A stretch of 64,000 nucleotides of DNA. Origin: an uncultured Gammaproteobacteria bacterium (GTDB taxonomy: Bacteria; Patescibacteriota; Patescibacteriia; UBA1558; UBA10009). The notes under the pieces are model-generated. The model did not search any database and was not told the DNA's origin. It worked only from the letters and a program-made list of their open reading frames with translations. How positions within the stretch are numbered: the first letter of the stretch is position 1; the number at the start of each line of letters is the position of its first letter. The translations under genes and the position numbers were made by a program. Where the stretch lies: positions 105,839 to 169,838 of the forward strand of contig CAZPMS010000002.1 of assembly GCA_964588165.1 (NCBI GenBank), given 5' to 3'. Shown in pieces: positions 19,787-61,389 of this stretch.

Positions 19787-21583
19787 ATGCAGTTACTAAA
19801 ATCTGAAAAAAAAATAAAGACAGCTACTTGGATAGTTGGTTTTATATTATTAGTAGCTGTTTTTGTTTTACTTGCTCCACAGGTTATGGCCCAAGCTTCT
19901 TTAGGGGTAGAAGTTGGAGCAGATACTGGCTTAGGCACAGCTGATTTAAAATTGGTAATTACCAGGATAGTAAGAATTATTTTGGGCTTTATTGGAATTA
20001 TAGCGGTGATAATTATTTTATACGGCGGCTATACTTGGATGACAGCTGCGGGCAACGAACAAAAGATAGACGATGCCAAAAAGATTTTAGTAAATGCGAT
20101 TATCGGCTTAATAATAATATTGGCTTCTTTTGCTATTGTAAGTTACGTTATAAGCCGTTTGCAACAGGCTACCATTAGCGGCCCAGGAGCAGGGGGCAGG
20201 GATCCTTACCATATTAATCCGGGCGCTTTGGGTGGCGGAATTTTACAGAATGTTTATCCGGAACCGGGCGCTACAGAAGTCCCCCGCAACACTTTAATAA
20301 TGGTCAGTTATAAGGAAAGTATGGATATTGCCAGCATTATTGATATAGAAAGCGATCCAGCTGATTGTGCAGACTTGCCAGAAGAAGTTTTTTGCGGCTT
20401 TTTAGCAGAGGTAAGCGGCGATCCTACCACTTTAGTAATTAACCGTTCCGAAGATAACGCCCAATTGGCTGCCGATGAAGTAGTGGTAATGACAAATGAC
20501 GGCAAAAATTTTGTTTATGATCCAGTTGTTTATTTAGGAAGCTCTGATGCTTATACAAATTATTCAATAAATTTAACTGATCAAATAAATAAATCAGGCG
20601 GTGATCCGGCATTTTTAATTGGCGGCTATTTATGGTCGTTCCAGGTTAGTAATATAGTAGACCTAACACCTCCTAAAGTAACCGGCGTGGTGCCTGTTTC
20701 TGGAACGGCTGTTCCTAAAAATACCACAGTGCAAATTAATTTTGATGAAGCTGTTAATGTGGTTACAGCCACAGGCCATGCCACTGGAGATCCAAGCCTG
20801 CCTTTTAATAATATTTTAATAAGTTATGAAGATGATATAGGCAATATCATTTATATGAGCGGCGATGCCACTATTAGCAATTTTTTTAGAACCGTTGAAT
20901 TTATAAGTGATATCCAGTGCGAAATTGGCCCTATTCCGGTAGTTAATTCCTGTGGTACTGTGCCAACCTGTTTCCCGGGTGAAGAAGACTTTTTAGTTTT
21001 GGTAAAAGCGGCTTTGGTTGATGTAAATGGCAATACCATTGATATATTTTCCGGCATTACCGATGCAGCCGGAAATTCTTTGGACGGTAACGCCGACGGT
21101 TTCTCTCAAGGCCAGCCTGATGATAATTACAGTTCAAATTTTTCTACCACCGACGAAATGGATTTAACACCGCCGGAAATAATTTCTCCTTTAGAACCGG
21201 AGCAAGGCAATGAATCTGTGCCCCAAAACAAACACCTTAAAGCAATATTTAATGAATATATTTTAAGTAGCAGTTTAAATACAGAAAATTTTGTGGTTTT
21301 TGAATCAGCTTGCGGTTTAGAGTTGCCTGAATTTCCAGATGACGGATCTTGTTATCCAGAAGGCGGCTTTACTACTTATAAAGAAAATATATCAGGCAAT
21401 CCCGCTGTTAACGGCGGCAATCCGGCTACCAAGGCAATTTTAAGAACATATTATCCTTATTTAAATCCTTTAACCGATTACAATTCCCGTTTAACAGCAG
21501 GGATTAAGGATGCATATCAAAACTGCTTTAACCCGGCTGTTGGGCCGTGCCAGCCTGGACAGATCACCCCAAATTGTCCGTAG
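19787..21583 (+). CDS. secreted surface protein: signal peptide + VirB2/TrbC-like double-TM hairpin N-domain + bacterial Ig-like domains
   Basis: 598 aa; AQA cleavage site, mature part ILGFIGIIAVIIILYGGYTWM...hydrophilic loop...second TM, then Ig-like (DLTPPKVTGVVPVSG) repeats; N-domain paralogous to that of the downstream giant protein. Confidence 0.7.
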   Translation: MQLLKSEKKIKTATWIVGFILLVAVFVLLAPQVMAQASLGVEVGADTGLGTADLKLVITRIVRIILGFIGIIAVIIILYGGYTWMTAAGNEQKIDDAKKILVNAIIGLIIILASFAIVSYVISRLQQATISGPGAGGRDPYHINPGALGGGILQNVYPEPGATEVPRNTLIMVSYKESMDIASIIDIESDPADCADLPEEVFCGFLAEVSGDPTTLVINRSEDNAQLAADEVVVMTNDGKNFVYDPVVYLGSSDAYTNYSINLTDQINKSGGDPAFLIGGYLWSFQVSNIVDLTPPKVTGVVPVSGTAVPKNTTVQINFDEAVNVVTATGHATGDPSLPFNNILISYEDDIGNIIYMSGDATISNFFRTVEFISDIQCEIGPIPVVNSCGTVPTCFPGEEDFLVLVKAALVDVNGNTIDIFSGITDAAGNSLDGNADGFSQGQPDDNYSSNFSTTDEMDLTPPEIISPLEPEQGNESVPQNKHLKAIFNEYILSSSLNTENFVVFESACGLELPEFPDDGSCYPEGGFTTYKENISGNPAVNGGNPATKAILRTYYPYLNPLTDYNSRLTAGIKDAYQNCFNPAVGPCQPGQITPNCP

Positions 21584-21592
21584 AATTTATTT

Positions 21593-24500
21593 ATGAATTT
21601 AAAACCTAAAACAAAAATCATCTTCATGGGCCTGCTTTTATTAGTAGTTGCTATTTTATTGGTTCCCCAGTTGGCCTTTGCCCAAGCTTCTTTAGGAGTA
21701 GAAGTTGGCGCAGATACTGGCTTGGGCAGCCGAGACCTTAAAGAAGTGATAGTGGCTGTAGTCCAGATATTTTTAGGATTTTTGGGCATTGTAGCCGTAA
21801 TTGTTTTAATTTATGGCGGCTATATTTGGATGACGGCCGGTGGCAGCCCCGATAAAGTGGAACAGGGCAAAAGGATTGTTATTAACGTAGCTGTTGGTTT
21901 GGTGGTTATTTTAATTTCTTTTGCCGTAGTTACTTTTATTGCCAATGTTATAAGCGATGCTACTGGCAGTGAACCGGGGGAACCGGGCGATCCAGGGGAA
22001 CCGGGCGATCCAACTGTAGAAAGTTTTATCGTTCAGTCAATTCAGCCCAGGGGCGAACAAAGCATCAGAAATATTGTGGTGCAAATTGCTTTTAATGAAA
22101 ATGTTGATGCCAGTAGTTTAATTTCCAGGCCAGATAGCGTGGTAGTTGCCAAGTCAAACGGCCTTGGCGGTTTTGACAGAGTAAACGGTGTTTTAGAGCT
22201 GGCTGCAGGCAATCCCAAAAAAGTTTTGTTTACACCAAGCACGCCTTGTCCGTCGCCAAATGAAGATTTATTCTGTTTTGACTATGATGCCATAAACCCC
22301 GACTTAAATGTCCATCAGGTAGAAGTGAGCGGCGATGGAGCAGCTTCTTTAAAGAGTGTTAGCGGTAAAACGGTTACCTGCACTTTAGACAGTTGTTTGG
22401 CAGAATTTTCAACCGGCCCGTTGGTTGATATTGAAGATCCGGAAGTGGCTTTAACAGAAGCTATAGATCTGGCTGATCAAGTTTTTATTTTAACCAATGG
22501 CGTTTCCCTTTCGGCAGATGAATTGTATCAGTTGTATGCCGATGCCACAGATGATGGTGGAATTACCGGCGTAGATTTTTATCTTGATGGCGATTACATT
22601 GGTTTTGATACGCCAGTTGGCGATGCCCCGTTGAATTTTACGGCTCAAATAATTCCTGATTGGCATACCGACGGTTTAGAGTTAAACCAAAATTATTATC
22701 TTACCAGCAGGGCTTATGATGTGGCCTATAACGAAACTTTATCCGATTCAGTTAGAGTGGTTATTAGGCCGGCCCATTGTTTTAATGATGTAATAGATCC
22801 TGATTTAGGTGAAACCGGTTTGGATTGTGGCGGGCCTTGCCCGGCCTGTGAAGGTGAATCATGCGGAGAACTGGTTGGCGAGATTTGCACTAATCCTGAT
22901 AATAATGCCTGCGCTTCCGGTTTGTGTGATACAGAAACTTGCTATTGTGTGCCGGCTCCACAAGTCAGTTCGGTGGATCCGGATAATGGCGCTTCAGGCA
23001 ACTGGGTAACTATTTTAGGCAGCCATTTTGGTGACGAAATCGGAACCGTTACAATTGGCGGTGAGACTGCCAACTCGCCTCCGGATATTTTATGCCCCAG
23101 CAGCTGGCAAGATAGCCAAATTATTATAGAGCTTCCCGAACTGGATTTGGGCAATCAGCAGCTTCAGGTTACAACCAGTGAGGGATTAAATAGCAACTTT
23201 TACGATTTTTTAATAAATGATACAGAACGGCCTGGTATTTGCTCGGTAGCACCGGCGGAAGGTAAATTTGAAGATAGTTTCCAGGTAGATGGAATCCAGT
23301 TTGGCGAGGATTATATGGAAAGGGATGTTTATTTTGGCCGGCCAGATGATCCTATCTCGGCTTTTAATCCCAGCTGGTCGCTTGTAGGAGATTATGGCAG
23401 GGTAGTTGCCGATGTTCCTAATTTACTTAAAGGTAATACGGGCGTAAGAGTAAGAGTTGAGGGTGAAAGTAGTAATGTTTTAGCTTTTACAGTTTTGGAA
23501 TCAGCTCATGAAGAGGTAAGGATTGATTATTTTACTCCTGAGTCTGGAGCAGACGGCCAGTATGTAACTATTTTTGGCAGTGGCTTTGGCAATTATGTGC
23601 CGGGCGAAAGTTTGGTTAAATTTTCAACAGATAAAGAGGGCAGCCTTGATTTTCCGGATGAATGCGGCACAAATTTCTGGACCGATACCCAAATTGTTGT
23701 AAAGGTCCCGAATACAGAAGAGGTTGGCGAACTTGATGACCAAGGCCCAATTACCGTAATTACTGCCTCCGAAGATTTAGCTGTTTCTTCCCAAAACTTT
23801 TTATATACCCCGGTAGCAGATGTGGCGCCCGGTATTTGCAGCCTATTTCCTCAAGAAGGAACTATTGGCTCTACCTTTAGTGTTGCCGGTGAGGGTTTTG
23901 AAGATTCTACTTTATATTTGAATGATTTGTCTTTTGTAGATGCTCCGGTAAACGATAATTATTATGAAGATGTAATGGTGCCAGAAGGCTCTGAGTCTGG
24001 CCCGGTTAAAATAGTAAAGGATGTTTTAGAAAGTAATACAATAGATTTTGAAGTAACAGCCGATGCTCCGGATGAGCCTGAACTGCCCAGTGATTATTAC
24101 CAGTGGCAGTTTACCACCTGCCAAGATTGTTTGGTTCCGGAAGTTGTAGAGATAGGCAGTTGTTGGTTTAGCTTGGCCTCGCCAACTCCCTTAAAAAACA
24201 GCCAAGATAATTATAGCGATACTTTAATTTCCGCCACCTTTAATACTGATATGGATGATTCATTATTTGAACTTGGCACCACCATTTTATTAGCTGAGTG
24301 CGGTGACGCAGAATCTCCCGGAATTTGTAATCCGATAACTGTTGCAGGTGATTTTGAATTTGGTTTAAGCGGATCTGATTATGAATATTTCACTTTGGAT
24401 TTAGATGATAGTTTAAATCTTAATACCTGGTATAGGGCCACCTTAACTAACCTTAAGAGTAATCTGGAACAGATTGCCATGGAAGATGATTACCAATGGT

Positions 24501-27500
24501 TCTTTAAAACCAAAACTGTAGATTCCCAGTGTGATGTTACTGATGTTATGGTTAATCCGGCACAAAGGATAGTTGATGCTTTAATTCCAGAAAACAATAA
24601 CCCAGTTTATTTAGATGAACAGGTTTGGTATGACTCGTTGGCTTATAATTCAGCCAATTGTAATGTTTGTCCGGATGTTTATGAATGGTCCTGGAGTTCT
24701 TCCCAACCGTCTCAGGCTAATATAGACGAAACATCAATAATCAACAGCAGCTTACTTTCGGCCGATGCTTATACTAACCTCGGTGAACATGCTGTTATCA
24801 CAGCCGTAGCCGTAAATGCAACCAGCACACCTTCGGGCACTGCCGAAGTGGATATTGTGCCCAGGAATCCGGAAATAGTTTATCATTGGGAGTGTACGCC
24901 AGAACCGCAAACCCCCAGCCCTTGGCCAGGCACCGAAGAAGCCTGCATTAATGCCAAGATAGCTGTTGAGTTTGATACAATTATGGATCCGGCCACTACT
25001 TTAAATATAAATAATATATCAGTAACTTATGATAGCGGTTTTGGCTGGCTTGATATATCGGGTTCCTTGGAGGGCCTATATGGAACCAGAGGAGATTTAG
25101 CCGGTTTAGTAGGCCTGGTATTTACTCCGGATAGTTTTATGGATCCTGATAGCTGGCATGAAGTTATTTTAAGTTTTGATATTTTAAGTGCGGAAGGGGG
25201 AAGTTTAACAGGCACTAACAGTTGGCAATTTAAAACTAAAGATAGTGATGAAGTTTGCTCTATTACACAAGCTATAGTTGATCCTTCATCCACAATCTTA
25301 ACTGCCGAAGGCGCTACCGAAAATTATACAGCCTTTGGCCAAGGCGAAAGTTGTGAGCTGGTGGTAAATCCAGATTTAAATTGGTCATGGAATAGTGAGG
25401 ATAATCAAGTGGCTGCAATTTTTGCAAGTAATAATGATGAAGCAGTTGTTATTGCCAATAACGAAGGCCAAACTTATATTAGGGCAGAAGCTAACGGCAT
25501 TCAAAATGAAGGTAATAATGGTTTGGTAACCGTTAATTATGGCCCAGGACCAACAGCTTTTGAGATAACTGAAAATCTGCCGGTTGGTGATGATGTTTGT
25601 TTAAATGCCCAGGGTTTAGTTAGATTTAATTTGAGCTTAGATCAAGAAAGTATTGCCACTGAAAATTTTGAAGTTTGGCAAGAAGCTGAAAGGTTAAGTT
25701 ATTGTGAAGATAATCCGGATATAAATTGTACCAGTGATATTGATTGTTCTGGAACATTTTCAGGCAAGTGCCAAGCCGAATGGACAGTTAGCAGCAGCGG
25801 GCCAAGAACGGCTATAGATATTTTACCGACAATAAATGATGGCCTGTGGAATCCCGGATCTGATTATTCTATCAGAGTCTACGGCGGCGGTTTGGGAGTA
25901 ATTTCCGATTCAGGAGAACAGCTAATTCAAGAAGGCTGTCCGCCAAGCATGTCTTGGAGCGAGGCCGGCCAGTATTGTTATTGGGATTTTAAAACTGCCG
26001 GAGAAATTTGTGCCATAGATAACATTCAAATAGAACCTGCTTCTGCCGCTACCACCGTAGGCATGATAGTAGATTGGCTGGCAACTCCTTATGCCCAAAA
26101 TGGCAATCCTCTTTCCAATGAGCTTGATAGGTGGCGCTCAGAAAATGTTTGGTCGCCTAATAATTTATTGGTAGCTGATGTAGAGGCTACTTCGCCAAAT
26201 GGGCACCAGGCCTCTTCTTTGGCTTTAAATGTTGGCAGGGCTTTAATTTTTGCCGGCGCCCCGATAGAAGCAGGCAGTGAAGAAATTATCTGGGGTTCTG
26301 CCGATTTGCAGGTGCTAGAAGAATTTAATGGACCAGAAGTAACCGATGTGCAGCCTCAACCGGGCGAAGAAGATGTTTGCCGCAACAGCTTGATTAATAT
26401 TGGCTTTGATCAGTTTATTAATCCGGCAACAGTAAGTAACAGCACTTTAAAGGCAGAATATTTGTCTACCGAATATTCAGAAGGCTGCTACGAAGTTGAT
26501 ATGGGCGGTGAAATAAGTTTTTATAAAAACTATAATAATGTTATTTCTAAAACTTTAGCTTCCAGGCTGTTTAATTGGTTTTCGGCTAATATTTTAAATC
26601 GGCTGATCGGTCCGGTAAAAGCCCAAGTAACTAATTATATGTGTCCTGTTCAAGGCACTCGGGAATTGGTAAATAATTTATATGATAGCGAAGTCAAGTT
26701 TAGTCCGGCAGAAGCTTTTCCTGCTAATTCAGAAATAAATGTAATAGTTGTTGGCGGGGATAACGGCATTAAAGGCACCAATGGCCTGCCTTTGGAAGGA
26801 GATGGTTTAGATGAAGACGGAAATTATTCATACAGTTTTACCACAAGGGCAGATATTTGTACTTTAAGCATGGTCAGTGTAGTAGCTGATGAAGCAACAG
26901 GAGAAAGTGAATGGGTATTTACCACCAGTTTTGATAATCTTGATGACAATGATCCTGATGATTTGGCAAATTTTGATACTATTTATGATGGTGATAAAAA
27001 ATATACAGCTTCCGGTTACAGCCTTGAAGGTACAGAACTTTTTCCAATAGAAGGAGTTTATGAGTGGGTCTGGGATTGGAGCAGTAGTGATACTAATATA
27101 GCCAGCCTTGCTTACGCCGCTGATGATATTTCGGTAGTTAGTGTTAATAATATTAAAACAGGCCAAAGCGATATTGTGGCCGAGGCGGTTTTCCCTAATT
27201 GGTATAACCAACCCAATCTGCCAGGTTCAGGTTTGGCTATTGTTAATTTATGTGAAAATCCTTGGCCGGCAGTTGTTTCTGAACAGCCAGAGCAATTTAT
27301 TGATGATGATTTTAATTTCGGGCTTTCTTATTGCAGGGATGCTGGTGGTTTAGGAACAGAAGATGATCTACCAGCTCTAAATGTAATTGATTTTGTGGAG
27401 AACAGCCATCTGCCTACAGATCCGGCCGAAGATGAATTATTAAAAGAGTATTTAATACCAGTGCCTACCACCGGAGATTTAATTGGATTAAGGATTTATG

Positions 27501-30500
27501 AAAATTCTTTCCACTTATCACCTTCAGATTGGTATAAAAAGAACATAGCTGTTCAGGGCTTTCCAAATAGCACTTTAGTGGATGGTTATAAAGCTATTGT
27601 AGACGGCAGGACAACTTATGTTGCAGCCTCTGATGTAGAATCACTAACTGAAGAAGACCCTTTGGCTTATATGCTACCGAGTAAAGGTTCAATAATTTCA
27701 AGAGTTGTTAACAATATCTGGCAAGGTTTAAAAGAGTTTATAAATAATTCTTTATTTACTGTGAAGGCGGCAGAAGGCGAAGATGAAGAATCTGAAGGTG
27801 GTTATAAGGTAACCGGAATTGAGGGCGGTTATACAGATATTTTTTTACTTTCTTATAATCAAGGAGCCAGGCCGGAAACTTTAGAAATAGTTAACCAGCT
27901 TATTGAAAGGTGGAATTTTAATACTAATGTAGATAATCCTAAAATTAAAGAAAAAATTATTAGAGATGTAGAAAGATTAAGCCATTTAAATTCTATTGCT
28001 GGGAGCCTGGACCAATATCAGTTAAGCCATGAAGGCACTTTTCCAGCCTTAGAGGCCGGCACTTTTTTAAAAACCATGAGTACCAGCAAATGGCCTTCTT
28101 GGAACGAAACTTTGGGATCAGAACTGGGAACAATTTTACCATTTGATCCAACCAATAAATTTGGCGCCTGTATTGATTGCCAGGAACCGGAATTAATTAA
28201 TCCTGGCTTTGAGGATGACCCTGATTCATTAGTAGGCTGGGCAAATGTTGGCGTTGTAACAATGGAAGTTAATACCGATCCAGATTATGTTCGTGAAGGC
28301 AGTCAGTCCGCTTTTGTTATATCGCCTGTTGTTCCTGAAGATGGCATTAAGAGCAGTAATATACCAGTTATTACCAACACTACTTATGAATATTCTGCTT
28401 GGGTTTATGTTGAGCATCCAAACAGGGTACAGATTAGAAATCTTTCTTATCCACGGTCGGGTAATGAGTGGTTTACTCCGCCCGATTACACTGGCTGGTT
28501 TCAGTTAAAAGACAGGTTTACAACTTCGGATGTATCACCAGTTAGGATACAAATTGTCTCATATGGGGGCCCAGCCACTTTTTGGGTGGACGAGGTTTAT
28601 ATTGGCACCTCTAATGGCAACTGCGGTTATGACCTAGAAACTTGCTGGAATCCCGAGGCAAATTTTGGTACTGGGGCTTTTGCCTGCGATGCTGATTCAT
28701 ATTTTTACCGCTATCAAGGAGAAATTGATTTAGATTCAGAAGTAACAAATTATACTTTAGCTGCTAAATTGGAAACAACTACCAATTGGTATCCTAATAA
28801 CATTGGCGATAATTATTATTTAGATCCCCATTTGGTTATTAGCACTAATAATGTTTTAGGCTGTGATGCCAACATTTTTGCCGGTTTTTGCGGCGACTCC
28901 ATTGTCCAAGAACCAATAGAACAGTGCGAACCGGGCAATTCATATTATTTATGCAGTACAGATATTTTGTGGTACACCCCGGCCGGCAGCGGTCCTTATG
29001 GCTGTTTCCCTGCAGGTGATCCTAATCAGTGCAATTGGTATAGCCCATTACTTGATTCAGATGATGAATGCTACGGTTTAAGTTCATCCCAATGTTGTGG
29101 TGGCTATTGCGGTGACAGTGTTTTAAATACTGCAGCCGGAGGCTATCTTTTAATAGATGATGAAGAATGCGAATTAGGAGTGGGCGGTTATGGCGATGGT
29201 ACGGCCGAAGATGAACAGTATTCTTGTTCTGGCAGTTGCCAGGATGTTGGCGGTTGGTGTGGCGACGGTTCCATTCAAACCGGTTATGGCGAAGAATGCG
29301 ATGGCAGCACCAGTGGCTGGGATTGTTTGGCATCACTTGTTAATCCAACTTGTAATACTTGTGAGGTAGAATGCTCAGAAGGCAATCCTTACCAGGGAAC
29401 TTGCGGCAATAATACCAGGGAAGCTATAGAAATATGCGACGGAACGGATAATGGCTATCCTAATTCAACCTGTATAGAATATTGTTCTGATGTAGAATGT
29501 GTAGGTAGTTGGCAGGCTTGCGATGGCAATCGTTTGGATTATAACGGCTGTGAAACTGATACTGATAACGATCCAAATAATTGTGGAACTTGTTTAAATA
29601 ATTGTCCTGGCCCTGTTGGCGGCAATGGCTATGCAGAATGTGAATCTGGAGGCTGCACAATTGTTTGTGACCCCGGTTATGATCTTGTGGGCGACGAATG
29701 TGTTTTAGTGGCTATTTGCGGTAATGATATTATTGAAGGCGGTGAAGTTTGTGATGATGGCGCAAACAACGGCAACTTTGGCTATTGTAATGCCACTTGT
29801 GATGGAATTGAAGGTTTGGGCGATGCTTTATTTTATGATAATTTTGAAGACTGGAATTTTACCACCAGTAATTGGGAAGAAGGCTATAATTATAATGGTC
29901 CTGGCGGTGGAGAAATTTGGTCAAGATCTTTGCCAGGCGGGGGGATAAATTACAAATTAAAATCAGAAATTAATAATGTTGCCCCTAATTTCCCCAGAGA
30001 TTTCAGGGTAACCAATGCCAATGCCAATAATTTATTAAATGTAGATATATTGGTAATGATAGATTTTAGCTATTCAGCTGATGATGATGCTGTATTATTC
30101 GCTAGGCATAATGGCCAAAATCATTATATGGATCAGGAATATTATGCTTTGTGGAATGACCATAATAGTGAGATTCAAATAATAAGAGTTGGGCCTGATG
30201 GATATCATGATGAAGACTTAGCAAGCACTTTTCCCTTAACAAGTGGTATTTATTGGTTACAGTTTAAAGTTTTTGATGTAGGAGGTAATATTAGACTTCA
30301 AGCCAGATGGTGGCCAGAGGGTACCGAAATGCCGGCTGCCTGGAATTTTGATATAATAGATAGCTCTGAAAATAAAATTACAACTTCTGGACAGGTAGGA
30401 GTTGCCGGTTGGATGAACTCAACTTTTTACTTTGATAATTTCCAAGTTTATGATGCAGATGTTGTTGCCGAGCCGGTTCCGGATGAACCAGCCTATATCT

Positions 30501-31051
30501 CAGCTGTAGCCACTTCGCCTACTTCCATTAATATCCAGTGGGAGGATGTTTCAGCTGACTATTACCAATTAGTTGGTAAGGCGGGCAGTTGTAGCGGCGA
30601 TTTTGATCCGGTTGATAGTGATATAATAACCAATGAATATGACCATACTTCTGGTCTTTTTCCGGAAACAACTTATTGTTACCGGGTTAGGTCTTGTAAT
30701 AGCCTAGATCAGTGTTCTGGCTTCACCATGCCTGGCGATCAGGCAACTACACCGGCTATGCCACTGGATCCTCCAAATAATTTAATAGGTAATTGGGTTG
30801 ATTATGATAATTTTACAGGCACCTGGGATGAAGTAGATGGGGCTGATCATTATGTAGCTAGAATACAAAATAAAAGAAACACTAATTGGGGTCCATGGGA
30901 AGCCTTAATAGAGACATTTTATACTAATGCCCAATGGTCCGAGGGTAGCGGCATATATGGTAATACCAATACAGTTAAATTTCAGGTAAAAGCTTGTGAT
31001 ATAAATGATGTTTGTTCAGCCTATATTGAAAGTGATCAATATAGTAGATAA
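21593..31051 (+). CDS. giant (3152 aa) multi-domain cell-surface adhesin: VirB2-like N-domain, GEPGDP collagen-like linker, 4 IPT/TIG domains, CBM4/9-like module, Cys-rich CGDG/CDDG repeats, ConA/LamG-like domain, 2 FN3-like domains
   Basis: single uninterrupted ORF; domain calls from sequence motifs (TIG: PxVxSVxPxxGxxGGxxVTIxGxxFG; CBM4_9: NPGFEDD...GWANVG...YEYSAWVYV; MXCR-like: ICGNDIIEGGEVCDDGANNG). Confidence 0.8.
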   Translation: MNLKPKTKIIFMGLLLLVVAILLVPQLAFAQASLGVEVGADTGLGSRDLKEVIVAVVQIFLGFLGIVAVIVLIYGGYIWMTAGGSPDKVEQGKRIVINVAVGLVVILISFAVVTFIANVISDATGSEPGEPGDPGEPGDPTVESFIVQSIQPRGEQSIRNIVVQIAFNENVDASSLISRPDSVVVAKSNGLGGFDRVNGVLELAAGNPKKVLFTPSTPCPSPNEDLFCFDYDAINPDLNVHQVEVSGDGAASLKSVSGKTVTCTLDSCLAEFSTGPLVDIEDPEVALTEAIDLADQVFILTNGVSLSADELYQLYADATDDGGITGVDFYLDGDYIGFDTPVGDAPLNFTAQIIPDWHTDGLELNQNYYLTSRAYDVAYNETLSDSVRVVIRPAHCFNDVIDPDLGETGLDCGGPCPACEGESCGELVGEICTNPDNNACASGLCDTETCYCVPAPQVSSVDPDNGASGNWVTILGSHFGDEIGTVTIGGETANSPPDILCPSSWQDSQIIIELPELDLGNQQLQVTTSEGLNSNFYDFLINDTERPGICSVAPAEGKFEDSFQVDGIQFGEDYMERDVYFGRPDDPISAFNPSWSLVGDYGRVVADVPNLLKGNTGVRVRVEGESSNVLAFTVLESAHEEVRIDYFTPESGADGQYVTIFGSGFGNYVPGESLVKFSTDKEGSLDFPDECGTNFWTDTQIVVKVPNTEEVGELDDQGPITVITASEDLAVSSQNFLYTPVADVAPGICSLFPQEGTIGSTFSVAGEGFEDSTLYLNDLSFVDAPVNDNYYEDVMVPEGSESGPVKIVKDVLESNTIDFEVTADAPDEPELPSDYYQWQFTTCQDCLVPEVVEIGSCWFSLASPTPLKNSQDNYSDTLISATFNTDMDDSLFELGTTILLAECGDAESPGICNPITVAGDFEFGLSGSDYEYFTLDLDDSLNLNTWYRATLTNLKSNLEQIAMEDDYQWFFKTKTVDSQCDVTDVMVNPAQRIVDALIPENNNPVYLDEQVWYDSLAYNSANCNVCPDVYEWSWSSSQPSQANIDETSIINSSLLSADAYTNLGEHAVITAVAVNATSTPSGTAEVDIVPRNPEIVYHWECTPEPQTPSPWPGTEEACINAKIAVEFDTIMDPATTLNINNISVTYDSGFGWLDISGSLEGLYGTRGDLAGLVGLVFTPDSFMDPDSWHEVILSFDILSAEGGSLTGTNSWQFKTKDSDEVCSITQAIVDPSSTILTAEGATENYTAFGQGESCELVVNPDLNWSWNSEDNQVAAIFASNNDEAVVIANNEGQTYIRAEANGIQNEGNNGLVTVNYGPGPTAFEITENLPVGDDVCLNAQGLVRFNLSLDQESIATENFEVWQEAERLSYCEDNPDINCTSDIDCSGTFSGKCQAEWTVSSSGPRTAIDILPTINDGLWNPGSDYSIRVYGGGLGVISDSGEQLIQEGCPPSMSWSEAGQYCYWDFKTAGEICAIDNIQIEPASAATTVGMIVDWLATPYAQNGNPLSNELDRWRSENVWSPNNLLVADVEATSPNGHQASSLALNVGRALIFAGAPIEAGSEEIIWGSADLQVLEEFNGPEVTDVQPQPGEEDVCRNSLINIGFDQFINPATVSNSTLKAEYLSTEYSEGCYEVDMGGEISFYKNYNNVISKTLASRLFNWFSANILNRLIGPVKAQVTNYMCPVQGTRELVNNLYDSEVKFSPAEAFPANSEINVIVVGGDNGIKGTNGLPLEGDGLDEDGNYSYSFTTRADICTLSMVSVVADEATGESEWVFTTSFDNLDDNDPDDLANFDTIYDGDKKYTASGYSLEGTELFPIEGVYEWVWDWSSSDTNIASLAYAADDISVVSVNNIKTGQSDIVAEAVFPNWYNQPNLPGSGLAIVNLCENPWPAVVSEQPEQFIDDDFNFGLSYCRDAGGLGTEDDLPALNVIDFVENSHLPTDPAEDELLKEYLIPVPTTGDLIGLRIYENSFHLSPSDWYKKNIAVQGFPNSTLVDGYKAIVDGRTTYVAASDVESLTEEDPLAYMLPSKGSIISRVVNNIWQGLKEFINNSLFTVKAAEGEDEESEGGYKVTGIEGGYTDIFLLSYNQGARPETLEIVNQLIERWNFNTNVDNPKIKEKIIRDVERLSHLNSIAGSLDQYQLSHEGTFPALEAGTFLKTMSTSKWPSWNETLGSELGTILPFDPTNKFGACIDCQEPELINPGFEDDPDSLVGWANVGVVTMEVNTDPDYVREGSQSAFVISPVVPEDGIKSSNIPVITNTTYEYSAWVYVEHPNRVQIRNLSYPRSGNEWFTPPDYTGWFQLKDRFTTSDVSPVRIQIVSYGGPATFWVDEVYIGTSNGNCGYDLETCWNPEANFGTGAFACDADSYFYRYQGEIDLDSEVTNYTLAAKLETTTNWYPNNIGDNYYLDPHLVISTNNVLGCDANIFAGFCGDSIVQEPIEQCEPGNSYYLCSTDILWYTPAGSGPYGCFPAGDPNQCNWYSPLLDSDDECYGLSSSQCCGGYCGDSVLNTAAGGYLLIDDEECELGVGGYGDGTAEDEQYSCSGSCQDVGGWCGDGSIQTGYGEECDGSTSGWDCLASLVNPTCNTCEVECSEGNPYQGTCGNNTREAIEICDGTDNGYPNSTCIEYCSDVECVGSWQACDGNRLDYNGCETDTDNDPNNCGTCLNNCPGPVGGNGYAECESGGCTIVCDPGYDLVGDECVLVAICGNDIIEGGEVCDDGANNGNFGYCNATCDGIEGLGDALFYDNFEDWNFTTSNWEEGYNYNGPGGGEIWSRSLPGGGINYKLKSEINNVAPNFPRDFRVTNANANNLLNVDILVMIDFSYSADDDAVLFARHNGQNHYMDQEYYALWNDHNSEIQIIRVGPDGYHDEDLASTFPLTSGIYWLQFKVFDVGGNIRLQARWWPEGTEMPAAWNFDIIDSSENKITTSGQVGVAGWMNSTFYFDNFQVYDADVVAEPVPDEPAYISAVATSPTSINIQWEDVSADYYQLVGKAGSCSGDFDPVDSDIITNEYDHTSGLFPETTYCYRVRSCNSLDQCSGFTMPGDQATTPAMPLDPPNNLIGNWVDYDNFTGTWDEVDGADHYVARIQNKRNTNWGPWEALIETFYTNAQWSEGSGIYGNTNTVKFQVKACDINDVCSAYIESDQYSR

Positions 31052-31073
31052 GTTAATAATTAATTAAAAATAT

Positions 31074-31925
31074 ATGTTTGAAGACAAGCAAAATTCTAAT
31101 AACACTTCTACCGATGATTTAGGTTCAAGTAATTTGCCCAAATCATTTCCTAATCAGCAACCTTCAGCTTCGCCAGTAGATTTGCCTTTATCCAATCAGC
31201 CACCGGTTAAACCTAAGCCGGGCAGAGAAGTGCCAGGTGCTGAAGATATGTTTGCCGATACTGAAAAAGCAGAAACCATTCCACAGCCTGTAGCTGAACC
31301 AACAGTTATGCCGGAACCCCCTCTTGCTCAAAGTCCTCAAGCTCAACAGGAACCTCAAGCTGTAGCCGCGCCACCGGAGCCTTTATCAGAACTGCCGGAT
31401 GATTTAGAAGAAGAGGGCGGGGGCAGCAGGAAATTTTTCTGGATTGGTTTGTTTGCCCTGATAGTTATTTTAGGCGGCGGAGGCTGGTTTGCCTACAGCC
31501 AATTTTTTAAATCGGAATTGCCAGTAGATTTGCCTAATGTTAATTTAGGAGATCTTTCACCTACTAATTTAAATCAAGAGTTTGAAGACCAAATAGTAAA
31601 TTTGAATTTAAACAAAAATACTAATCAGCCAGAAGAATCTTTAGAGCCGGAAATAAACCAGAATAAAAATGTTAATCAGGCAACTGAGTTAGATTCCGAT
31701 AAAGATGGCCTAACTGATGCCGAAGAGGATTCATACGGAACTGATCCAAACGAACCGGATAGTGATGGCGATGGGCTTTATGATAGGGAAGAAGTAATAG
31801 TATACGAAACCAACCCTTTAAATCCGGATACTGACGGCGATGGCTATTTAGACGGCAATGAAGTTGAAAACGGTTATGACCCCAAAGGCCCAGGCAGATT
31901 ATTGGAATTAAATTTTGATGAATAA
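31074..31925 (+). CDS. TM-anchored Pro-rich protein with thrombospondin type-3 (DxDxDG) calcium-binding repeats
   Basis: 283 aa; central TM (FWIGLFALIVILGG), C-terminal DSDKDGLTDAEED...DSDGDGLYD...DTDGDGYLD repeats. Confidence 0.6.
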   Translation: MFEDKQNSNNTSTDDLGSSNLPKSFPNQQPSASPVDLPLSNQPPVKPKPGREVPGAEDMFADTEKAETIPQPVAEPTVMPEPPLAQSPQAQQEPQAVAAPPEPLSELPDDLEEEGGGSRKFFWIGLFALIVILGGGGWFAYSQFFKSELPVDLPNVNLGDLSPTNLNQEFEDQIVNLNLNKNTNQPEESLEPEINQNKNVNQATELDSDKDGLTDAEEDSYGTDPNEPDSDGDGLYDREEVIVYETNPLNPDTDGDGYLDGNEVENGYDPKGPGRLLELNFDE

Positions 31926-31977
31926 TCCAATTATTAAATTTATATTATTAGAAGTTTAGTGATATAATAAATTAACT

Positions 31978-33276
31978 ATGTTTACTCCACCAGAAAGCAA
32001 AGAACAAGTAAGTGAGCAGAATATGCCTCCAAAAGAAGGAGCGGTTACTGCAGAAGTTTCTTCTGAAGATATTCATACTATGCCTAATAGATTTTTAAAA
32101 CCTTCCGTGCCCAAAAAGAAGGGCCGTTTAAATTGGTTAATTTTAGGAACAGTAATAGTTGTGGCGCTGGGAGGAGTAATTGCAGTGGTAGTTGTGTTTT
32201 TAGGCAGGCAAACAGAACAACCTACTATAAATTTAGATATAAACCAGCCCATAGTAAACCAAAATACCAATCAGGAGCCTGTCAACCAGAATTTAAATAC
32301 TAACCAAAACCAAAATTCTAATGTTAACCAGAGTCCGGATACTGCCAGTGCCAGAGATATAAAAAAATTAGAAGATGCCACAGCCATAAGGTCAGCCTTA
32401 TCTTTATATTATAAAACCTATGAAGTTTTTCCAACCACTTTATCCAGTTTATTAGAGAATTATTTAATTGATTTGCCTCAAGATCCTTTAACAGAAGAAA
32501 GTTATATTTATTTTGCAGATAGTGGCCAGCAAAATTATCAATTATATATTTCCTTAGAAGAAAATTCAGAATGGGGGATTATGGTATTGCCTCAAGGAGA
32601 TTATTATTTTTCTGCTGAAGGTATTTTTCCGGATGATGTGAACCAAAATTCAAATATAAATAATAATACAAATAATTCTGTGCCCATTCCTCCTCCGCCG
32701 GTGGTAATAACTCCAAGCATGGGTTTGGATAGCGACGGCGACCAACTAACAGATATTGAAGAAAATATTTATCAAACCAATGCCACTTTAGCCGATACAG
32801 ATGGCGACGGCTATACAGATGCAACTGAGATATTAAATTTTTATGATCCTTTGGATCCAGAAGGGCGTTTGATAAATTCCGGTTTAACAGACCTTTACCA
32901 AAATCCTGATTATAACTATTCAGTAGTTTATCCCGCAGCCTGGGTTGTTAGGTCATTAACTGTAGATAGCAGCGAAATAATTTTTACATCTAATACCGGC
33001 GAATTTATTGAGATCATTATTCAAGAAAATCCTTTAAGCCTTTCAGCCCTAAATTGGTATCTGTCACAAAACCCCACGATAGACAGCACTACTTTAGAAA
33101 CTTTGGTTATAGATGGCTTTCCGGCAGTGCAGACTAAAGACGGTTTAACCACTTATTTATCTGTTGGTTCAAATATTTATATTATCGCTTACAATATTGG
33201 CGCCCAGCAACAGATGTATTTTTATACTACCTATCAGCTTTTACTGCGAAGCTTTATGTTTATTGAATTAGAGTAA
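31978..33276 (+). CDS. TM-anchored protein with pseudopilin/GspG-like globular domain and TSP3 repeats
   Basis: 432 aa; TM (LILGTVIVVALGGVIAVVVVFLG), N/Q-rich linker, AIRSALSLYYKTYEVFPTTLSSLL...LPQDP resembling type II secretion pseudopilin fold, then DSDGDQLTD...DTDGDGYTD. Confidence 0.55.
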   Translation: MFTPPESKEQVSEQNMPPKEGAVTAEVSSEDIHTMPNRFLKPSVPKKKGRLNWLILGTVIVVALGGVIAVVVVFLGRQTEQPTINLDINQPIVNQNTNQEPVNQNLNTNQNQNSNVNQSPDTASARDIKKLEDATAIRSALSLYYKTYEVFPTTLSSLLENYLIDLPQDPLTEESYIYFADSGQQNYQLYISLEENSEWGIMVLPQGDYYFSAEGIFPDDVNQNSNINNNTNNSVPIPPPPVVITPSMGLDSDGDQLTDIEENIYQTNATLADTDGDGYTDATEILNFYDPLDPEGRLINSGLTDLYQNPDYNYSVVYPAAWVVRSLTVDSSEIIFTSNTGEFIEIIIQENPLSLSALNWYLSQNPTIDSTTLETLVIDGFPAVQTKDGLTTYLSVGSNIYIIAYNIGAQQQMYFYTTYQLLLRSFMFIELE

Positions 33277-42553: not shown

Positions 42554-43246
42554 TTATTTAGTAAATTCAAAAGTGTTTAGTATTTCGTCCAGAGCGGAAA
42601 AGTCATTATTTCCCCCAGCAATTTGGTTGATAGTGCCCAGATTATTCCAGCCTTCGGGGATTGATGTAAATTCTATTTTAGTTCTGGCAGTAGGAATGTT
42701 ACCGCCCCAGTTCTGATTAGAGTCGGGAGTGTAAATAGTTTTAAGAGCAGATTTTTCATCTATTATAATATTTTCCTTGTTTTCATTCCAGATACCATCT
42801 TGAAATAGTACATAATTGCTTAGTGGACTGACAATAAATTTTTCGTCATCATTTTCTATTATTATATAGATGTACTTAGAATCATCCGGGTATGTTCCAG
42901 ATTTTTCTGACAAAATCCAGCTATTTGGATACTCAAAACTGAAGTTATATAAATCATTTGTGTAAACTTTCCAATTAGATTGTTCATCATCAGAACTATC
43001 TACAGGTTCGTTAGTATTTAATTCATCTTGTTTTACTTGAGTTTGCTGAAGCTGACTGATTTGGTTTTGTAATAAGGTGATTTCTTGCTGAAAGTTTTTT
43101 TCAGTTGTTTTTAAATTTGAATTTTGCCAAGCATAAACACCGCCGCCAAATATTAGAGCGGTAATTACAATTGAAACAATTATAACCCAGGGGTTTTTTG
43201 AGCCTTGGATTGGTTCTGGTGTTGGCAACTCGTTTTGTTCATCCAT
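42554..43246 (-). CDS. hypothetical membrane-anchored protein with coiled-coil
   Basis: 230 aa; N-terminal TM, Q-rich coiled coil. Confidence 0.45.
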   Translation of the reverse strand: MDEQNELPTPEPIQGSKNPWVIIVSIVITALIFGGGVYAWQNSNLKTTEKNFQQEITLLQNQISQLQQTQVKQDELNTNEPVDSSDDEQSNWKVYTNDLYNFSFEYPNSWILSEKSGTYPDDSKYIYIIIENDDEKFIVSPLSNYVLFQDGIWNENKENIIIDEKSALKTIYTPDSNQNWGGNIPTARTKIEFTSIPEGWNNLGTINQIAGGNNDFSALDEILNTFEFTK

Positions 43247-43316: not shown

Positions 43317-43459
43317 TTGACAAAATATGAAATATATGATAAATTTAGGCGTATTTTAAGTAAACAGGACTTTGACAAAGTAGTTAAAAACACCCCAAAA
43401 TGGGGCTTTTCGCGGAACGCAGAGTAGCAAAAAGCTACCTGCAACAGGAGATTGGATTG
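43317..43459 (+). repeat. duplicated promoter/5'-leader, copy 1 (~90% identical to 45226-45360)
   Basis: ttgacaaaatatgaaatatatgataaat...aacaccccaaaatggggcttttcgcggaacgcag...; contains extended -10-like TGaTAAAT and a small hairpin. Confidence 0.75.
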
Positions 43460-60861: not shown

Positions 60862-60866
60862 ACTCT

Positions 60867-61385: not shown

Positions 61386-61389
61386 CATT

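What the first reader, a model, noticed from the sequence alone, without database searches (positions are those of the whole stretch)
19787..33276. Surface-appendage locus: two proteins sharing a VirB2/TrbC-like pilin N-module (one a 3152-aa multi-domain adhesin) plus two TM-anchored TSP3-repeat proteins
The 598-aa protein and the 3152-aa giant protein start with nearly the same ~120-aa module: an SPase-I signal (AQA|SLGVEVGADTGLG) followed by two hydrophobic helices separated by a short loop (ILGFIGIIAVIIILYGGYTWMTA...NAIIGLIIILASFAIV). This is the topology and motif pattern of T4SS VirB2/TrbC pilins, here fused to very large extracellular regions (Ig-like, IPT/TIG x4, CBM4/9-like, Cys-rich CGDG/CDDG repeats, LamG-like, FN3). 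Downstream, two type-II membrane proteins carry thrombospondin type-3 Ca-binding repeats, and one has a GspG/pseudopilin-like globular domain without a prepilin leader. Together this looks like a host- or substrate-attachment apparatus built from pilin-like anchors rather than a canonical pilus operon.
Basis: partly seen in the sequence, partly recalled or inferred. Interest (0 to 1): 0.65.

Follow-up and report, generated by a model that had tools for sequence, protein, structure and literature searches.

The report
Giant surface proteins on pilin-like anchors
An ultra-small (CPR/Patescibacteria) bacterium carries a four-gene surface module, conserved in over 500 species, in which a 598-residue and a 3,152-residue protein both begin with the small two-helix module otherwise used as a conjugation-type (VirB2-like) pilin, making them candidates for the adhesins not yet identified for these bacteria's type IV secretion systems.

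Summary
ORFs 19787-21583 (598 aa) and 21593-31051 (3,152 aa) share a ~120-aa N-module (about 55% identity). It passes Pfam's threshold for T4SS_pilin (PF18895) and models as a signal peptide plus a two-helix hairpin. Big_5, Big_7, TIG and TSP3 calls are significant. CBM_4_9 is borderline, FN3 is sub-threshold and LamG gets no hit. The pseudopilin-like insert is supported only through an ortholog.

The locus is not an oddity. The order lepB-hisS-rpsU-yqeY | ~600-aa pilin-Ig protein | pilin-giant | two membrane-anchored TSP3 proteins | ybeY-ftsA recurs in 80 fetched species genomes, and at least 508 genomes encode a relative. The named ones I could look up are GTDB class ABY1. The giant has a collinear core of about 2,200 aa and a lineage-variable C-terminal tail.

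No T4SS or type IV pilus machinery lies within the window plus about 10 kb and 7 kb beyond its ends. In a related genome, both fused hairpins match exactly one of nine free pilins (55-60% versus 27-42% identity).

Best reading: modular VirB2-type pilins that display Ig-like stalks and an adhesin outside the cell. The rival is a pure membrane anchor.

Novelty: new variant of a known kind. Interest about 0.6.

The parts
19787..21583 (+). 598-aa protein: signal peptide, VirB2-like pilin hairpin, flexible linker and three tandem Ig-like (Big_5-type) domains
   Evidence: Pfam T4SS_pilin 34.6 bits and Big_5 60 bits. The AlphaFold2 full-length model has mean pLDDT 85 and an ectodomain at about pLDDT 95, all beta. 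Foldseek matches the Ig-like stalk domains of LdtMt2, the S-layer protein SbsC and adhesin extender regions. There are 322 or more homologous clusters with the same architecture.
19787..19897 (+). Sec-type signal peptide of the 598-aa protein (aa 1-37, predicted cleavage VMAQA|SLG)
   Evidence: Sequence inspection: basic n-region, hydrophobic core and A-x-A site. The same junction is conserved in free pilins. It models as a separate helix, H6-33, followed by a low-confidence segment. No signal-peptide predictor was run.
19898..20170 (+). Pilin module of the 598-aa protein (aa 38-128): conserved N-terminal segment, helix 1, basic loop NEQKIDDAKK, helix 2
   Evidence: PF18895 match at aa 54-121. 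Aligns end to end with free pilins. Helices H54-85 and H91-128 in the model.
20225..21526 (+). Ectodomain of the 598-aa protein (aa ~147-580): three Ig-like beta-sandwich domains with invariant cysteines
   Evidence: Invariant C378, C389, C395 and C580 across 44 family members.
21593..31051 (+). 3,152-aa giant protein: signal peptide, VirB2-like pilin hairpin, Pro/Glu/Gly linker, conserved ~2,200-aa stalk and variable C-terminal tail
   Evidence: Pfam hits. Orthologs of 0.9-3.5 thousand aa directly follow the ~600-aa gene in nearly all of the 80 related loci. Collinear over residues 1-2200 with distant orthologs.
21689..21955 (+). Pilin module of the giant (aa 33-121), after the predicted cleavage AFAQA|SLG
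   Evidence: PF18895 at 43 bits for the mature module alone. AlphaFold2 hairpin H14-48 and H54-93, mean pLDDT 83.5. 52-57% identical to free 122-aa pilins.
22958..24082 (+). IPT/TIG repeat region (aa ~456-830). Two repeats are significant; four are visible by motif.
   Evidence: TIG 59.8 bits with 2 stretches. The repeated P-x-I-x-S-V-x-P..G..G..V-T-I-x-G-x-x-F-G pattern can be read.
27290..28177 (+). Conserved unnamed ~250-300-aa module inside the giant (aa ~1900-2195). Its second half has a pseudopilin-head-like motif (RDxxRLxxL...WPSW..LG..LPxDPxN).
   Evidence: Conserved in 46-52 of 74 giants. It also exists as stand-alone 256-371-aa proteins. It has no Pfam or PDB match apart from one weak T2SSG hit at E 0.011.
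28193..31048 (+). Lineage-variable C-terminal tail of the giant (aa 2201-3152): CBM_4_9-like domain, Cys-rich CGDG/CDDG repeats, an unassigned beta-rich domain and FN3-like repeats
   Evidence: CBM_4_9 25.7 bits against a threshold of 25.9, with an ortholog at 2.2e-9. DUF4215 21 bits. fn3 16.8 bits. No LamG hit. Coverage by orthologs collapses after residue 2200.
31074..31925 (+). 283-aa type-II membrane protein: Pro/Gln-rich cytoplasmic N-terminus, TM helix (aa 121-141) and three bacterial TSP3 Ca-binding repeats (aa ~207-271)
   Evidence: TSP3_bac 57.1 bits with 3 stretches. Homologs were found in 26 related loci, downstream of the giant gene.
31978..33276 (+). 432-aa type-II membrane protein: cytoplasmic IHTMPNRF motif, TM helix (aa 51-76), Asn/Gln-rich linker, optional pseudopilin-head-like insert (aa ~121-215), two TSP3-like repeats (aa 251-291) and a PsbP-like C-terminal domain (aa ~301-432)
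   Evidence: Family alignment. The insert is present only in the window protein and in L056, and the L056 insert reaches T2SSG at 26.2 bits against a threshold of 21. The C-terminal domains of 7 of 12 family members match PsbP, best E 2.7e-5, and PDB 2xb3 matches at E 0.0018.

Best explanation
This is a conserved Patescibacteria cell-surface module. All five source genomes I could look up are GTDB class ABY1.

Shown or directly read from the sequence:
- Both large proteins start with a Sec signal peptide followed by a VirB2/T4SS_pilin-type two-helix hairpin with a basic inter-helix loop.
- Everything C-terminal of helix 2 is made of extracellular-type domains.
- The 598-aa protein carries three Ig-like domains.
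- The giant carries about 2,200 aa of conserved Ig/TIG-rich stalk and a variable, carbohydrate-binding-like, Cys-rich tail.

Inferred topology: after cleavage the hairpin sits N-out/C-out with the basic loop in the cytoplasm, so helix 2 acts as a signal-anchor that puts the passenger outside the cell.

Inferred mechanism (my commitment): these are modular VirB2-type pilins. The hairpin is the same subtype as one particular free ~122-aa pilin encoded in a pilin gene array elsewhere in a related genome. In solved VirB2 pili both termini lie on the filament's outer face. The fused proteins could therefore dock into, cap or nucleate the polymer built from that free pilin by the genome's T4SS, and so display a short Ig stalk and a giant adhesin towards the host or substrate. 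Until they are assembled, the same hairpin holds them in the membrane.

The two TSP3 proteins are single-pass, Ca-binding ectoproteins, one with a PsbP-like domain. I take them to be accessory envelope partners.
For: - HMM membership. PF18895 is above threshold in both proteins. All 70 of the aligned relatives match PF18895 and 37 of 70 also match TrbC/VirB2 PF04956, best E 2e-8.
- Fold. A hairpin with a short basic loop.
- Homology to free pilins. The module aligns end to end, including the extracellular mature N-terminus ASLGxExG..TGLG.RDLK, with free pilins that stop right after helix 2.
- One cognate pilin. In one genome (locus-tag prefix KKF32) both fused hairpins are 55-60% identical to exactly one of nine array pilins and 27-42% identical to the other eight.
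- Gene neighbours. Free small pilin genes sit between the ~600-aa gene and the giant gene in L046, L071 and L086.
- Geometry. [quoted passage not shown]
- C-terminal extension is common. Single polypeptides with 2-17 tandem hairpins exist.
- Literature. Patescibacteria T4SS clusters carry VirB2-like pilins. They were essential in Southlakia, and no PrgB-like adhesin was found (PMC12102498; PMC10633639).
- VirB4 in carrier genomes. The three larger locus-bearing genomes listed in that paper's Table S1 have VirB4.
- Conservation. A syntenic module in 80 species genomes, with 508 or more encoding a relative.
- Adhesin-like layout. A conserved stalk with a variable distal tail.
- Disulfide support. 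DsbA-like and CcdA-like genes lie in the window, which fits the many conserved cysteines.
Against: - No experiment exists on any member of this family.
- The locus is never next to T4SS machinery. None lies in the window plus about 10 kb and 7 kb beyond its ends. A screen of 83 related loci (up to 10 kb each side) for non-pilin ORFs of 400 aa or more with a Walker A motif found no VirB4-like ATPase; one 661-aa candidate has no Pfam hit at all.
- The pilin arrays examined are also not next to virB4.
- No sequence-profile hit to any solved VirB2, TraA or TrbC pilin, and no significant Foldseek hit. A helical hairpin is a generic fold.
- The TrbC HMM is below threshold for the window proteins.
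- A 470- or 3,000-residue passenger on a ~90-residue subunit cannot sit on every subunit of a packed filament.
- Two locus-bearing genomes are listed without VirB4, although both are only about 0.6 Mb.
- It is unproven that PF18895 proteins form pili in any Patescibacterium.
Confidence: 0.45

Rival explanations
1. Membrane anchor only. The pilin hairpin has been co-opted as a two-helix membrane anchor. The 598-aa protein and the giant are ordinary membrane-tethered surface proteins (a fibrillar adhesin and a shorter partner). They never enter a filament and work independently of any T4SS.
For: - The locus sits among housekeeping and division genes and away from any T4SS gene in every genome examined.
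- The passengers are far larger than the pilin module.
- The fold is a generic hairpin with no significant match to solved pilins.
- Two locus-bearing genomes are listed without VirB4.
Against: - A simple anchor needs only hydrophobicity. Here the whole module is conserved, including the extracellular mature N-terminus and the YGG[YF]xWMT[AS]xG motif, across the short family, the giant family and one specific free pilin.
- Free pilin genes are sometimes inserted between the two genes.
- Both 'No VirB4' genomes are about 0.6 Mb and probably incomplete.
Confidence: 0.38
2. Envelope scaffold. The module is a constitutive cell-envelope or S-layer-like structure, not an adhesin. In this reading Ig-like arrays are anchored by the hairpin, calcium-binding TSP3 proteins act as cross-linkers, and the genes are co-regulated with ybeY-ftsA-ftsZ.
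For: - The position is conserved immediately upstream of ybeY-ftsA-ftsZ, the genes are tightly spaced and no terminator-like site lies between the four genes.
- The 598-aa ectodomain is strongly conserved, with invariant cysteines.
- Its closest structural matches include S-layer protein SbsC and the Ig-like stalk domains of LdtMt2.
- The partner proteins carry Ca-binding repeats.
Against: - TM-scores to SbsC and LdtMt2 are only about 0.15. They say 'tandem Ig-like domains' and nothing more.
- The giant has a lineage-variable, CBM-like, Cys-rich distal tail that is typical of ligand binding.
- Gene order is broadly conserved across these genomes, so proximity to ftsA may carry no functional meaning.
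Confidence: 0.12
3. Chance or artefact. The shared N-terminus is just two similar signal/TM regions, or the giant ORF is an assembly or gene-calling artefact.
For: Hydrophobic segments can give spurious HMM hits. The giant's exact translation was not found in the protein collection.
Against: - About 55% identity over roughly 120 aa, including polar segments.
- PF18895 hit at E 5e-11 for the mature module.
- An identical 9,459-nt ORF in two independent assemblies.
- Collinear orthologs in 74 genomes.
Confidence: 0.01

Closest known systems
VirB2-like (PF18895/PF04956) pilins and pilin gene arrays of Patescibacteria T4SS (Quinonero-Coronel et al. 2025, PMC12102498; Wang et al. 2023, PMC10633639)
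   Same: Same Pfam family, same signal peptide plus hairpin module, same phylum. The fused modules are 52-60% identical to one free array pilin.
   Different: The known ones are separate genes. The relatives fetched here are about 110-330 aa. They often lie near virB4. Here the module heads a 598-aa and a 3,152-aa protein, in a separate conserved housekeeping locus with no T4SS gene nearby. Passenger-carrying pilins are not mentioned in the passages I read of those papers.
Canonical VirB2/TraA/TrbC conjugative pilins (T-pilus, F-pilus, RP4)
   Same: Sec signal, a U-shaped two-helix hydrophobic hairpin and a basic inter-helix loop. Both termini lie on the outer face of the filament in the T-pilus structure.
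   Different: The canonical pilins are small, with no passenger domains (my knowledge). There is no detectable sequence-profile match to solved examples. The TrbC HMM is below threshold for the window proteins. Polymerisation is untested.
Modular type IV pilins, e.g. Streptococcus sanguinis PilB and PilC (PMC8179133, PMC9934059; titles and abstract openings seen, detail from my own knowledge)
   Same: The same design logic. A pilin polymerisation module is fused to a functional (adhesive) passenger domain, and the protein is incorporated at low stoichiometry into a filament of a related major pilin.
   Different: A different and unrelated filament superfamily: type 4 filaments with a class III signal peptide and a single N-terminal helix. 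This is an analogy only, not homology.
Fibrillar or giant adhesins (SiiE, LapA-type, Ig-repeat adhesins) and the large Cys-rich extracellular proteins noted in CPR Peregrinibacteria (PMC4736985)
   Same: A long stalk of Ig-like/TIG repeats with a distal putative ligand-binding region. Cys-rich repeats. A proposed role in attachment to other cells.
   Different: The anchor is an N-terminal VirB2-like hairpin, not an LPXTG/sortase signal, a T1SS retention module or an autotransporter (comparison from my knowledge). The stalk is a conserved orthologous core shared across hundreds of species, not just a repeat array.
T4SS surface adhesins: VirB5 tip protein (diderms) and PrgB (monoderm conjugation)
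   Same: The proposed role of mediating target-cell contact for a T4SS.
   Different: No sequence relationship. According to PMC12102498, PrgB-like adhesins are undetected in Patescibacteria. Here the adhesin candidate is covalently part of a pilin.

Membership tests
T4SS_pilin (PF18895) / TrbC-VirB2 pilin superfamily | Match to the family HMM at or above the curated threshold | tested here: met
   PF18895 at 34.6 and 35.6 bits (threshold 26.6) in the full proteins, and 43 bits for the mature module. All 70 aligned relatives match.
T4SS_pilin (PF18895) / TrbC-VirB2 pilin superfamily | Match to the classical TrbC/VirB2 HMM (PF04956) | tested here: inconclusive
   24.4 and 21.7 bits, below the 27.9 threshold. 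37 of 70 close relatives match at E <= 1e-3, best 2.2e-8.
T4SS_pilin (PF18895) / TrbC-VirB2 pilin superfamily | Cleavable signal peptide followed by two hydrophobic helices joined by a short basic loop | tested here: met
   AlphaFold2 hairpin with pLDDT above 90 in the helices. Loops SPDKVEQGKR and NEQKIDDAKK. A-x-A site by inspection; cleavage itself is not tested.
T4SS_pilin (PF18895) / TrbC-VirB2 pilin superfamily | Structural similarity to solved conjugative pilins | tested here: inconclusive
T4SS_pilin (PF18895) / TrbC-VirB2 pilin superfamily | Small stand-alone subunit (mature ~70-100 aa) with no passenger domain | tested here: not met
   598 and 3,152 aa, with 470 and about 3,000 residues following helix 2.
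T4SS_pilin (PF18895) / TrbC-VirB2 pilin superfamily | Encoded with T4SS machinery (virB4, virB6, coupling protein) | tested here: not met
   None in the 64-kb window or in the roughly 10 kb and 7 kb read beyond its ends. A Walker-A screen of large non-pilin ORFs in 83 related loci (up to 10 kb each side) found no VirB4-like ATPase. VirB4 is reported elsewhere in 3 of 5 locus-bearing genomes.
T4SS_pilin (PF18895) / TrbC-VirB2 pilin superfamily | Polymerises into an extracellular pilus | not testable with these tools
   Needs microscopy or biochemistry. It is untested for any Patescibacteria PF18895 protein.
Fibrillar adhesin | Stalk of repeated Ig-like/TIG domains | tested here: met
   Big_5, Big_7 and TIG above threshold. 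Three Ig-like domains modelled in the 598-aa protein.
Fibrillar adhesin | Recognisable adhesive or ligand-binding domain | tested here: inconclusive
   CBM_4_9 at 25.7 against 25.9 bits, with an ortholog at 2.2e-9 at the same position. No LamG hit in the window protein. Laminin_G_3 is present in the giants of L004 and L006.
Fibrillar adhesin | Known cell-surface anchor (LPXTG, T1SS retention, autotransporter) | tested here: not met
   The C-terminus ends ...ESDQYSR with no LPXTG motif. The anchor is the N-terminal hairpin.
Type IV pilin / T2SS pseudopilin (432-aa protein insert) | Class III (prepilin) signal peptide with G|F-x-x-x-E | tested here: not met
   The N-terminus is a cytoplasmic segment followed by a plain TM helix at aa 51-76.
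Type IV pilin / T2SS pseudopilin (432-aa protein insert) | T2SSG (PF08334) globular-domain HMM match | tested here: inconclusive
   The window insert has no hit and only a PDB EpsG match at E 1.2. The homologous insert in L056 scores 26.2 bits against a threshold of 21. The insert is absent from 11 of 13 family members.
Bacterial TSP3 repeat proteins (PF18884) | HMM match above threshold | tested here: met
   The 283-aa protein scores 57.1 bits with 3 stretches. The 432-aa protein scores only 16-18 bits, but its DSDGDQLTD and DTDGDGYTD motifs are conserved across the family.

The most novel reading that the evidence does not exclude
In a large clade of Patescibacteria (ABY1 in all five cases I could look up), the T4SS-type (VirB2-like) pilus is a display scaffold. 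Modular VirB2 pilins are hairpins of the same subtype as one free pilin, fused to an Ig stalk or to a roughly 3,000-residue adhesin with a swappable tip. They would co-polymerise with, cap or nucleate the filament and provide the host-contact adhesins not yet identified for the Patescibacteria T4SS. This would be the first passenger-carrying pilins in the VirB2 superfamily. The tandem-hairpin polyproteins (2-17 modules) would be a second form of the same principle.
Probability: 0.35. Interest if true: 0.8.

Novelty: new variant of a known kind. Interest (0 to 1): 0.6.

Why it matters
Patescibacteria are a large fraction of uncultured bacterial diversity, and the cultivated ones live attached to other cells (PMC10633639, PMC11665869).

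Their T4SS is widespread and was essential in the one species tested. Its function is unknown, and no PrgB-like adhesin has been found for it (PMC12102498, PMC11665869).

A conserved, easily recognised gene pair that covalently joins the T4SS-type pilin module to an Ig stalk and to a giant adhesin-like protein gives a concrete, testable candidate for how these cells reach and hold their hosts. The variable tail of the giant is a natural candidate for host specificity.

It also shows that the VirB2 hairpin tolerates very large C-terminal passengers. That is relevant to pilus biogenesis models and to engineering pilus display.

Tried and rejected
- Foldseek of the hairpin model against PDB. Only non-significant generic helical hairpins came back, including the ATP-synthase c subunit, CnrX and designed bundles. 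The fold cannot discriminate.
- Profile of 70 pilin modules against PDB sequences. No VirB2, TraA or TrbC hit.
- Relaxed Pfam scans of the tail. LamG gave nothing and fn3 stayed sub-threshold.
- The window copy of the pseudopilin-like insert has no T2SSG hit and only EpsG at E 1.2.
- The conserved giant module at residues 1900-2195 has no Pfam or PDB assignment.
- I looked for strain variation in the giant to map hypervariable regions. The two other assemblies covering the whole gene are 100% identical, so this gave no information.
- The promoter and terminator scan found counts equal to those in shuffled sequence. It only shows that no terminator-like site lies between the four genes.
- I searched for T4SS or T4P machinery in the window, in the roughly 10 kb and 7 kb read beyond its ends, and around 83 related loci. 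None was found.
- I considered that the multi-module 'pilins' are read-through of gene arrays, for example under an alternative genetic code. I rejected this because there is one signal peptide and no internal signal peptides.
- I considered that P0001 and P0002, the best 'free pilin' hits at 62-67% identity, are real free pilins. P0002 lies on a 670-bp contig and loses similarity within helix 2 (ends ...GLAMKEITYG), so it is probably a fragment of a fused ortholog. I therefore relied on the ~122-aa array pilins, which have natural ends.
- Many related loci carry the record title 'uncultured Gammaproteobacteria'. I treated this as a placeholder label, because their gene content and synteny are those of Patescibacteria.

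Full report
**What is there**

The region holds four tightly spaced + strand ORFs:
- 19787-21583 (598 aa)
- 21593-31051 (3,152 aa)
- 31074-31925 (283 aa)
- 31978-33276 (432 aa)

The gaps between them are 9, 22 and 52 nt. Upstream lie lepB, hisS, rpsU and yqeY. Downstream lie ybeY, ftsA and ftsZ. Gene content and the closest named relatives place the window in Patescibacteria (CPR), nearest to Candidatus Komeilibacteria. Identical sequence occurs in several independent metagenome assemblies.

**The shared N-module**

The first ~125 residues of the two large proteins align at about 55% identity. Each has these parts in order:
- a basic and hydrophobic signal peptide ending AQA|S
- a conserved polar segment, SLGVEVGADTGLG
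- two hydrophobic helices joined by a short basic loop

Both proteins pass Pfam's gathering threshold for T4SS_pilin PF18895 (34.6 and 35.6 bits against 26.6). Both are just below it for TrbC/VirB2 PF04956. The mature module alone scores 43 bits. Of 70 aligned relatives, 70 match PF18895 and 37 also match TrbC, best E 2e-8.

AlphaFold2 gives a confident hairpin, H14-48 and H54-93, mean pLDDT 83.5. The same hairpin appears in the full-length 598-aa model.

The structural test cannot discriminate. Foldseek against PDB finds only non-significant generic hairpins. A profile of the family finds no solved VirB2, TraA or TrbC sequence. Membership therefore rests on the Pfam HMMs and on homology to free pilins, not on the fold.

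**Relation to free pilins**

The module's best homologs are stand-alone Patescibacteria proteins of 110-140 aa carrying PF18895. They align end to end and stop a few residues after helix 2. These free pilins lie in arrays of 9-10 pilin genes. Such arrays were described by Quinonero-Coronel et al. 2025 (PMC12102498).

In one genome (locus-tag prefix KKF32) both fused hairpins are 55-60% identical to exactly one of the nine array pilins. They are 27-42% identical to the other eight. In three other genomes a small free pilin gene lies between the ~600-aa gene and the giant gene.

**Passenger domains**

*The 598-aa protein.* It models with high confidence (ectodomain pLDDT about 95) as a flexible linker followed by three Ig-like beta-sandwich domains with invariant cysteines. 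Foldseek matches the Ig-like stalk domains of LdtMt2, S-layer protein SbsC and adhesin extender regions. TM-scores are about 0.15, so this supports 'tandem Ig-like array' and nothing more.

*The giant.* Significant hits are Big_7, TIG (two significant repeats, four by eye) and Big_5. CBM_4_9 is borderline at 25.7 against 25.9 bits, and an ortholog at the same position scores 2.2e-9. The DUF4215 Cys-rich repeats and fn3 are sub-threshold. There is no LamG hit.

*The 283-aa protein.* It has a cytoplasmic Pro/Gln-rich head, one TM helix and three TSP3_bac repeats (57 bits).

*The 432-aa family.* It has these features:
- a conserved cytoplasmic h-V-M-P-x-K-F motif
- one TM helix and a linker
- two TSP3-like repeats
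- a PsbP-like C-terminal domain (7 of 12 members, best E 2.7e-5; PDB 2xb3 at E 0.0018)

It is found only in the window protein and in L056. Only the L056 copy reaches the T2SSG threshold, at 26.2 against 21 bits.

**Conservation**

The 598-aa architecture (pilin plus Big_5, 530-700 aa) has at least 322 clusters.

In the 80 fetched loci, nearly every ~600-aa gene is followed at once by a second pilin-module ORF of 0.9-3.5 thousand aa. Among 87 related loci, counts of the upstream neighbours were:

| Gene | Loci with it |
|---|---|
| S21 | 72 |
| YqeY | 71 |
| HisRS | 68 |
| LepB | 66 |

Downstream of the giant, homologs of the 283-aa protein were found in 26 loci. Homologs of the 432-aa protein gave hits in 22 loci, about 16 of them to a separate ORF in the expected position right after the 283-aa homolog. 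Where the locus extended far enough, YbeY and FtsA came next.

Named carriers include Komeili-, Falkow-, Uhr- and Magasanikbacteria. All five carriers I could look up are GTDB class ABY1 in Table S1 of PMC12102498.

The giant is collinear with even distant orthologs (24-28% identity) over residues 1-1250 and 1600-2200. The last ~950 residues are lineage-specific.

The pilin module itself is a very large family, with 89,344 representative clusters at E <= 1e-3.

**Machinery**

No VirB4, VirB6, VirD4 or PilB/C/D lies in the window or in the roughly 10 kb and 7 kb read beyond its two ends. I screened 83 related loci (up to 10 kb each side) for non-pilin ORFs of at least 400 aa with a Walker A motif. 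None was VirB4-like. The candidates were Der, Mfd, RadA, an AAA_21 ATPase, an ATP synthase subunit by its sequence, and one 661-aa protein with no Pfam hit.

Of five locus-bearing genomes in Table S1 of PMC12102498, the three of 0.9-1.07 Mb have VirB4. The two of about 0.6 Mb do not.

**How it most likely works**

Shown: the sequence order is signal peptide, hairpin, linker, then extracellular-type domains. Conserved cysteines are present, and DsbA-like and CcdA-like genes lie in the window.

Inferred topology: after cleavage the hairpin sits N-out/C-out with its basic loop in the cytoplasm. Helix 2 then acts as a signal-anchor that exports the passenger.

In the solved T-pilus the VirB2 chain is U-shaped. 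Both termini lie on the outer side of the filament and the basic loop lies in the lumen (10.1101/2022.09.25.509369). A C-terminal passenger is therefore geometrically compatible with a pilus.

Three observations favour 'modular VirB2-type pilins' that join, cap or nucleate the polymer of the cognate free pilin:
- the one-to-one subtype match with a single free pilin
- the conservation of the extracellular N-terminal segment
- the occasional free pilin gene inside the operon

I rate this reading at about 0.45.

The simpler rival is that the hairpin is only a membrane anchor. I rate it at about 0.38. It is favoured by the complete genomic separation from T4SS genes and by the size of the passengers. 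An envelope or S-layer-like scaffold reading is possible but weak, at about 0.12.

In all three readings the giant looks like an N-terminally tethered fibrillar adhesin with a conserved stalk and a swappable distal tip.

**Comparison with what is known**

VirB2-like pilins and pilin arrays in Patescibacteria are published (PMC12102498, PMC10633639). Large Cys-rich extracellular proteins in CPR are also published (PMC4736985).

The following points did not appear in the held literature I searched or in the passages I read:
- fusion of the pilin module to large passengers
- the conserved four-gene module in a housekeeping locus
- the specific pairing with one free pilin

PMC12102498 states that no PrgB-like adhesins were detected. 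Public annotations call these proteins 'Ig-like domain-containing protein', 'pilin' or 'hypothetical'.

The closest functional analogy is the modular type IV pilins of Streptococcus sanguinis (PMC8179133, found). That filament family is unrelated.

**Verdict**

This is a new variant of a known kind. Interest is about 0.6.

Noticed in passing
not in window; proteins P0198, P0203, P0205, P0226 and others: The exhaustive search with the pilin-module profile is topped by single polypeptides with one signal peptide followed by 2-17 tandem VirB2-like hairpin modules joined by short Gly/Ser/Thr linkers (for example 552 aa with 6 modules and 1,775 aa with 17). They have no internal signal peptides, so they are not read-through of gene arrays. 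Covalently concatenated pilins are not mentioned in the passages I read of the Patescibacteria T4SS paper.
   Followed up: partly
window 43400-45148 and 45361-47199 (+): Two secreted proteins end in type IX secretion C-terminal sorting domains (Por_Secre_tail 45.5 and 50.9 bits, threshold 27). The region has GC 0.40-0.44 against roughly 0.35 for much of the window, but the giant gene reaches a similar GC. A T9SS sorting signal is unexpected in a Patescibacterium. Horizontal acquisition or a different use of the domain is possible.
   Followed up: partly
window 27290-28177 (giant aa ~1900-2195); P0361-P0366: A conserved ~250-300-aa module of unknown function (DAIGxR..N..H.SP..WYK.NI ... YTNIYxISYNQ ... 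RDxKRLxDL ... WPSW..LG..LP.DPINK) lies inside the giant. It also exists as stand-alone 256-371-aa proteins, some with an N-terminal hydrophobic segment, including one annotated from Candidatus Raymondbacteria (non-CPR). It has no Pfam or PDB match.
   Followed up: partly
window 31978-32130 (432-aa protein aa 30-50) and orthologs in L018-L090: The 432-aa family shares a conserved cytoplasmic motif, h-[VT]-M-P-x-[KR]-F, shortly before the TM helix. Its role is unknown.
   Followed up: no
L007 8750-13562; L009 9496-15207: Arrays of 9-10 free pilin genes have conserved flanks (NTP_transferase and SBP_bac_1/8 upstream, DUF2079 membrane protein downstream) and no VirB4 within 10 kb. The pilin arrays in these genomes are therefore also detached from the T4SS ATPase.
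   Followed up: partly
window 42554-43246 (-): A 230-aa TM-anchored protein with a weak PsbP_2-like domain (22.4 bits against 27). It has the same 'Y.N..Y.FSF.YP..W' signature as the C-terminal domain of the 432-aa protein, which suggests a recurrent extracytoplasmic PsbP-like domain in this genome.
   Followed up: no
window 60121-62256 (+): A DsbA-like thioredoxin (PF13462 and PF01323), DUF1573 Ig-like proteins and a CcdA/DsbD-like membrane protein (my reading of the sequence; it has no Pfam hit on record) form a cluster. This would fit oxidative folding of the many Cys-rich exported proteins.
   Followed up: no
L012, L014, L015 and many other loci: Many public MAG records carrying this Patescibacteria-type locus are titled 'uncultured Gammaproteobacteria bacterium' (TPA_asm). 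The gene content and synteny are those of CPR, so the titles look like placeholder or erroneous taxonomy.
   Followed up: no
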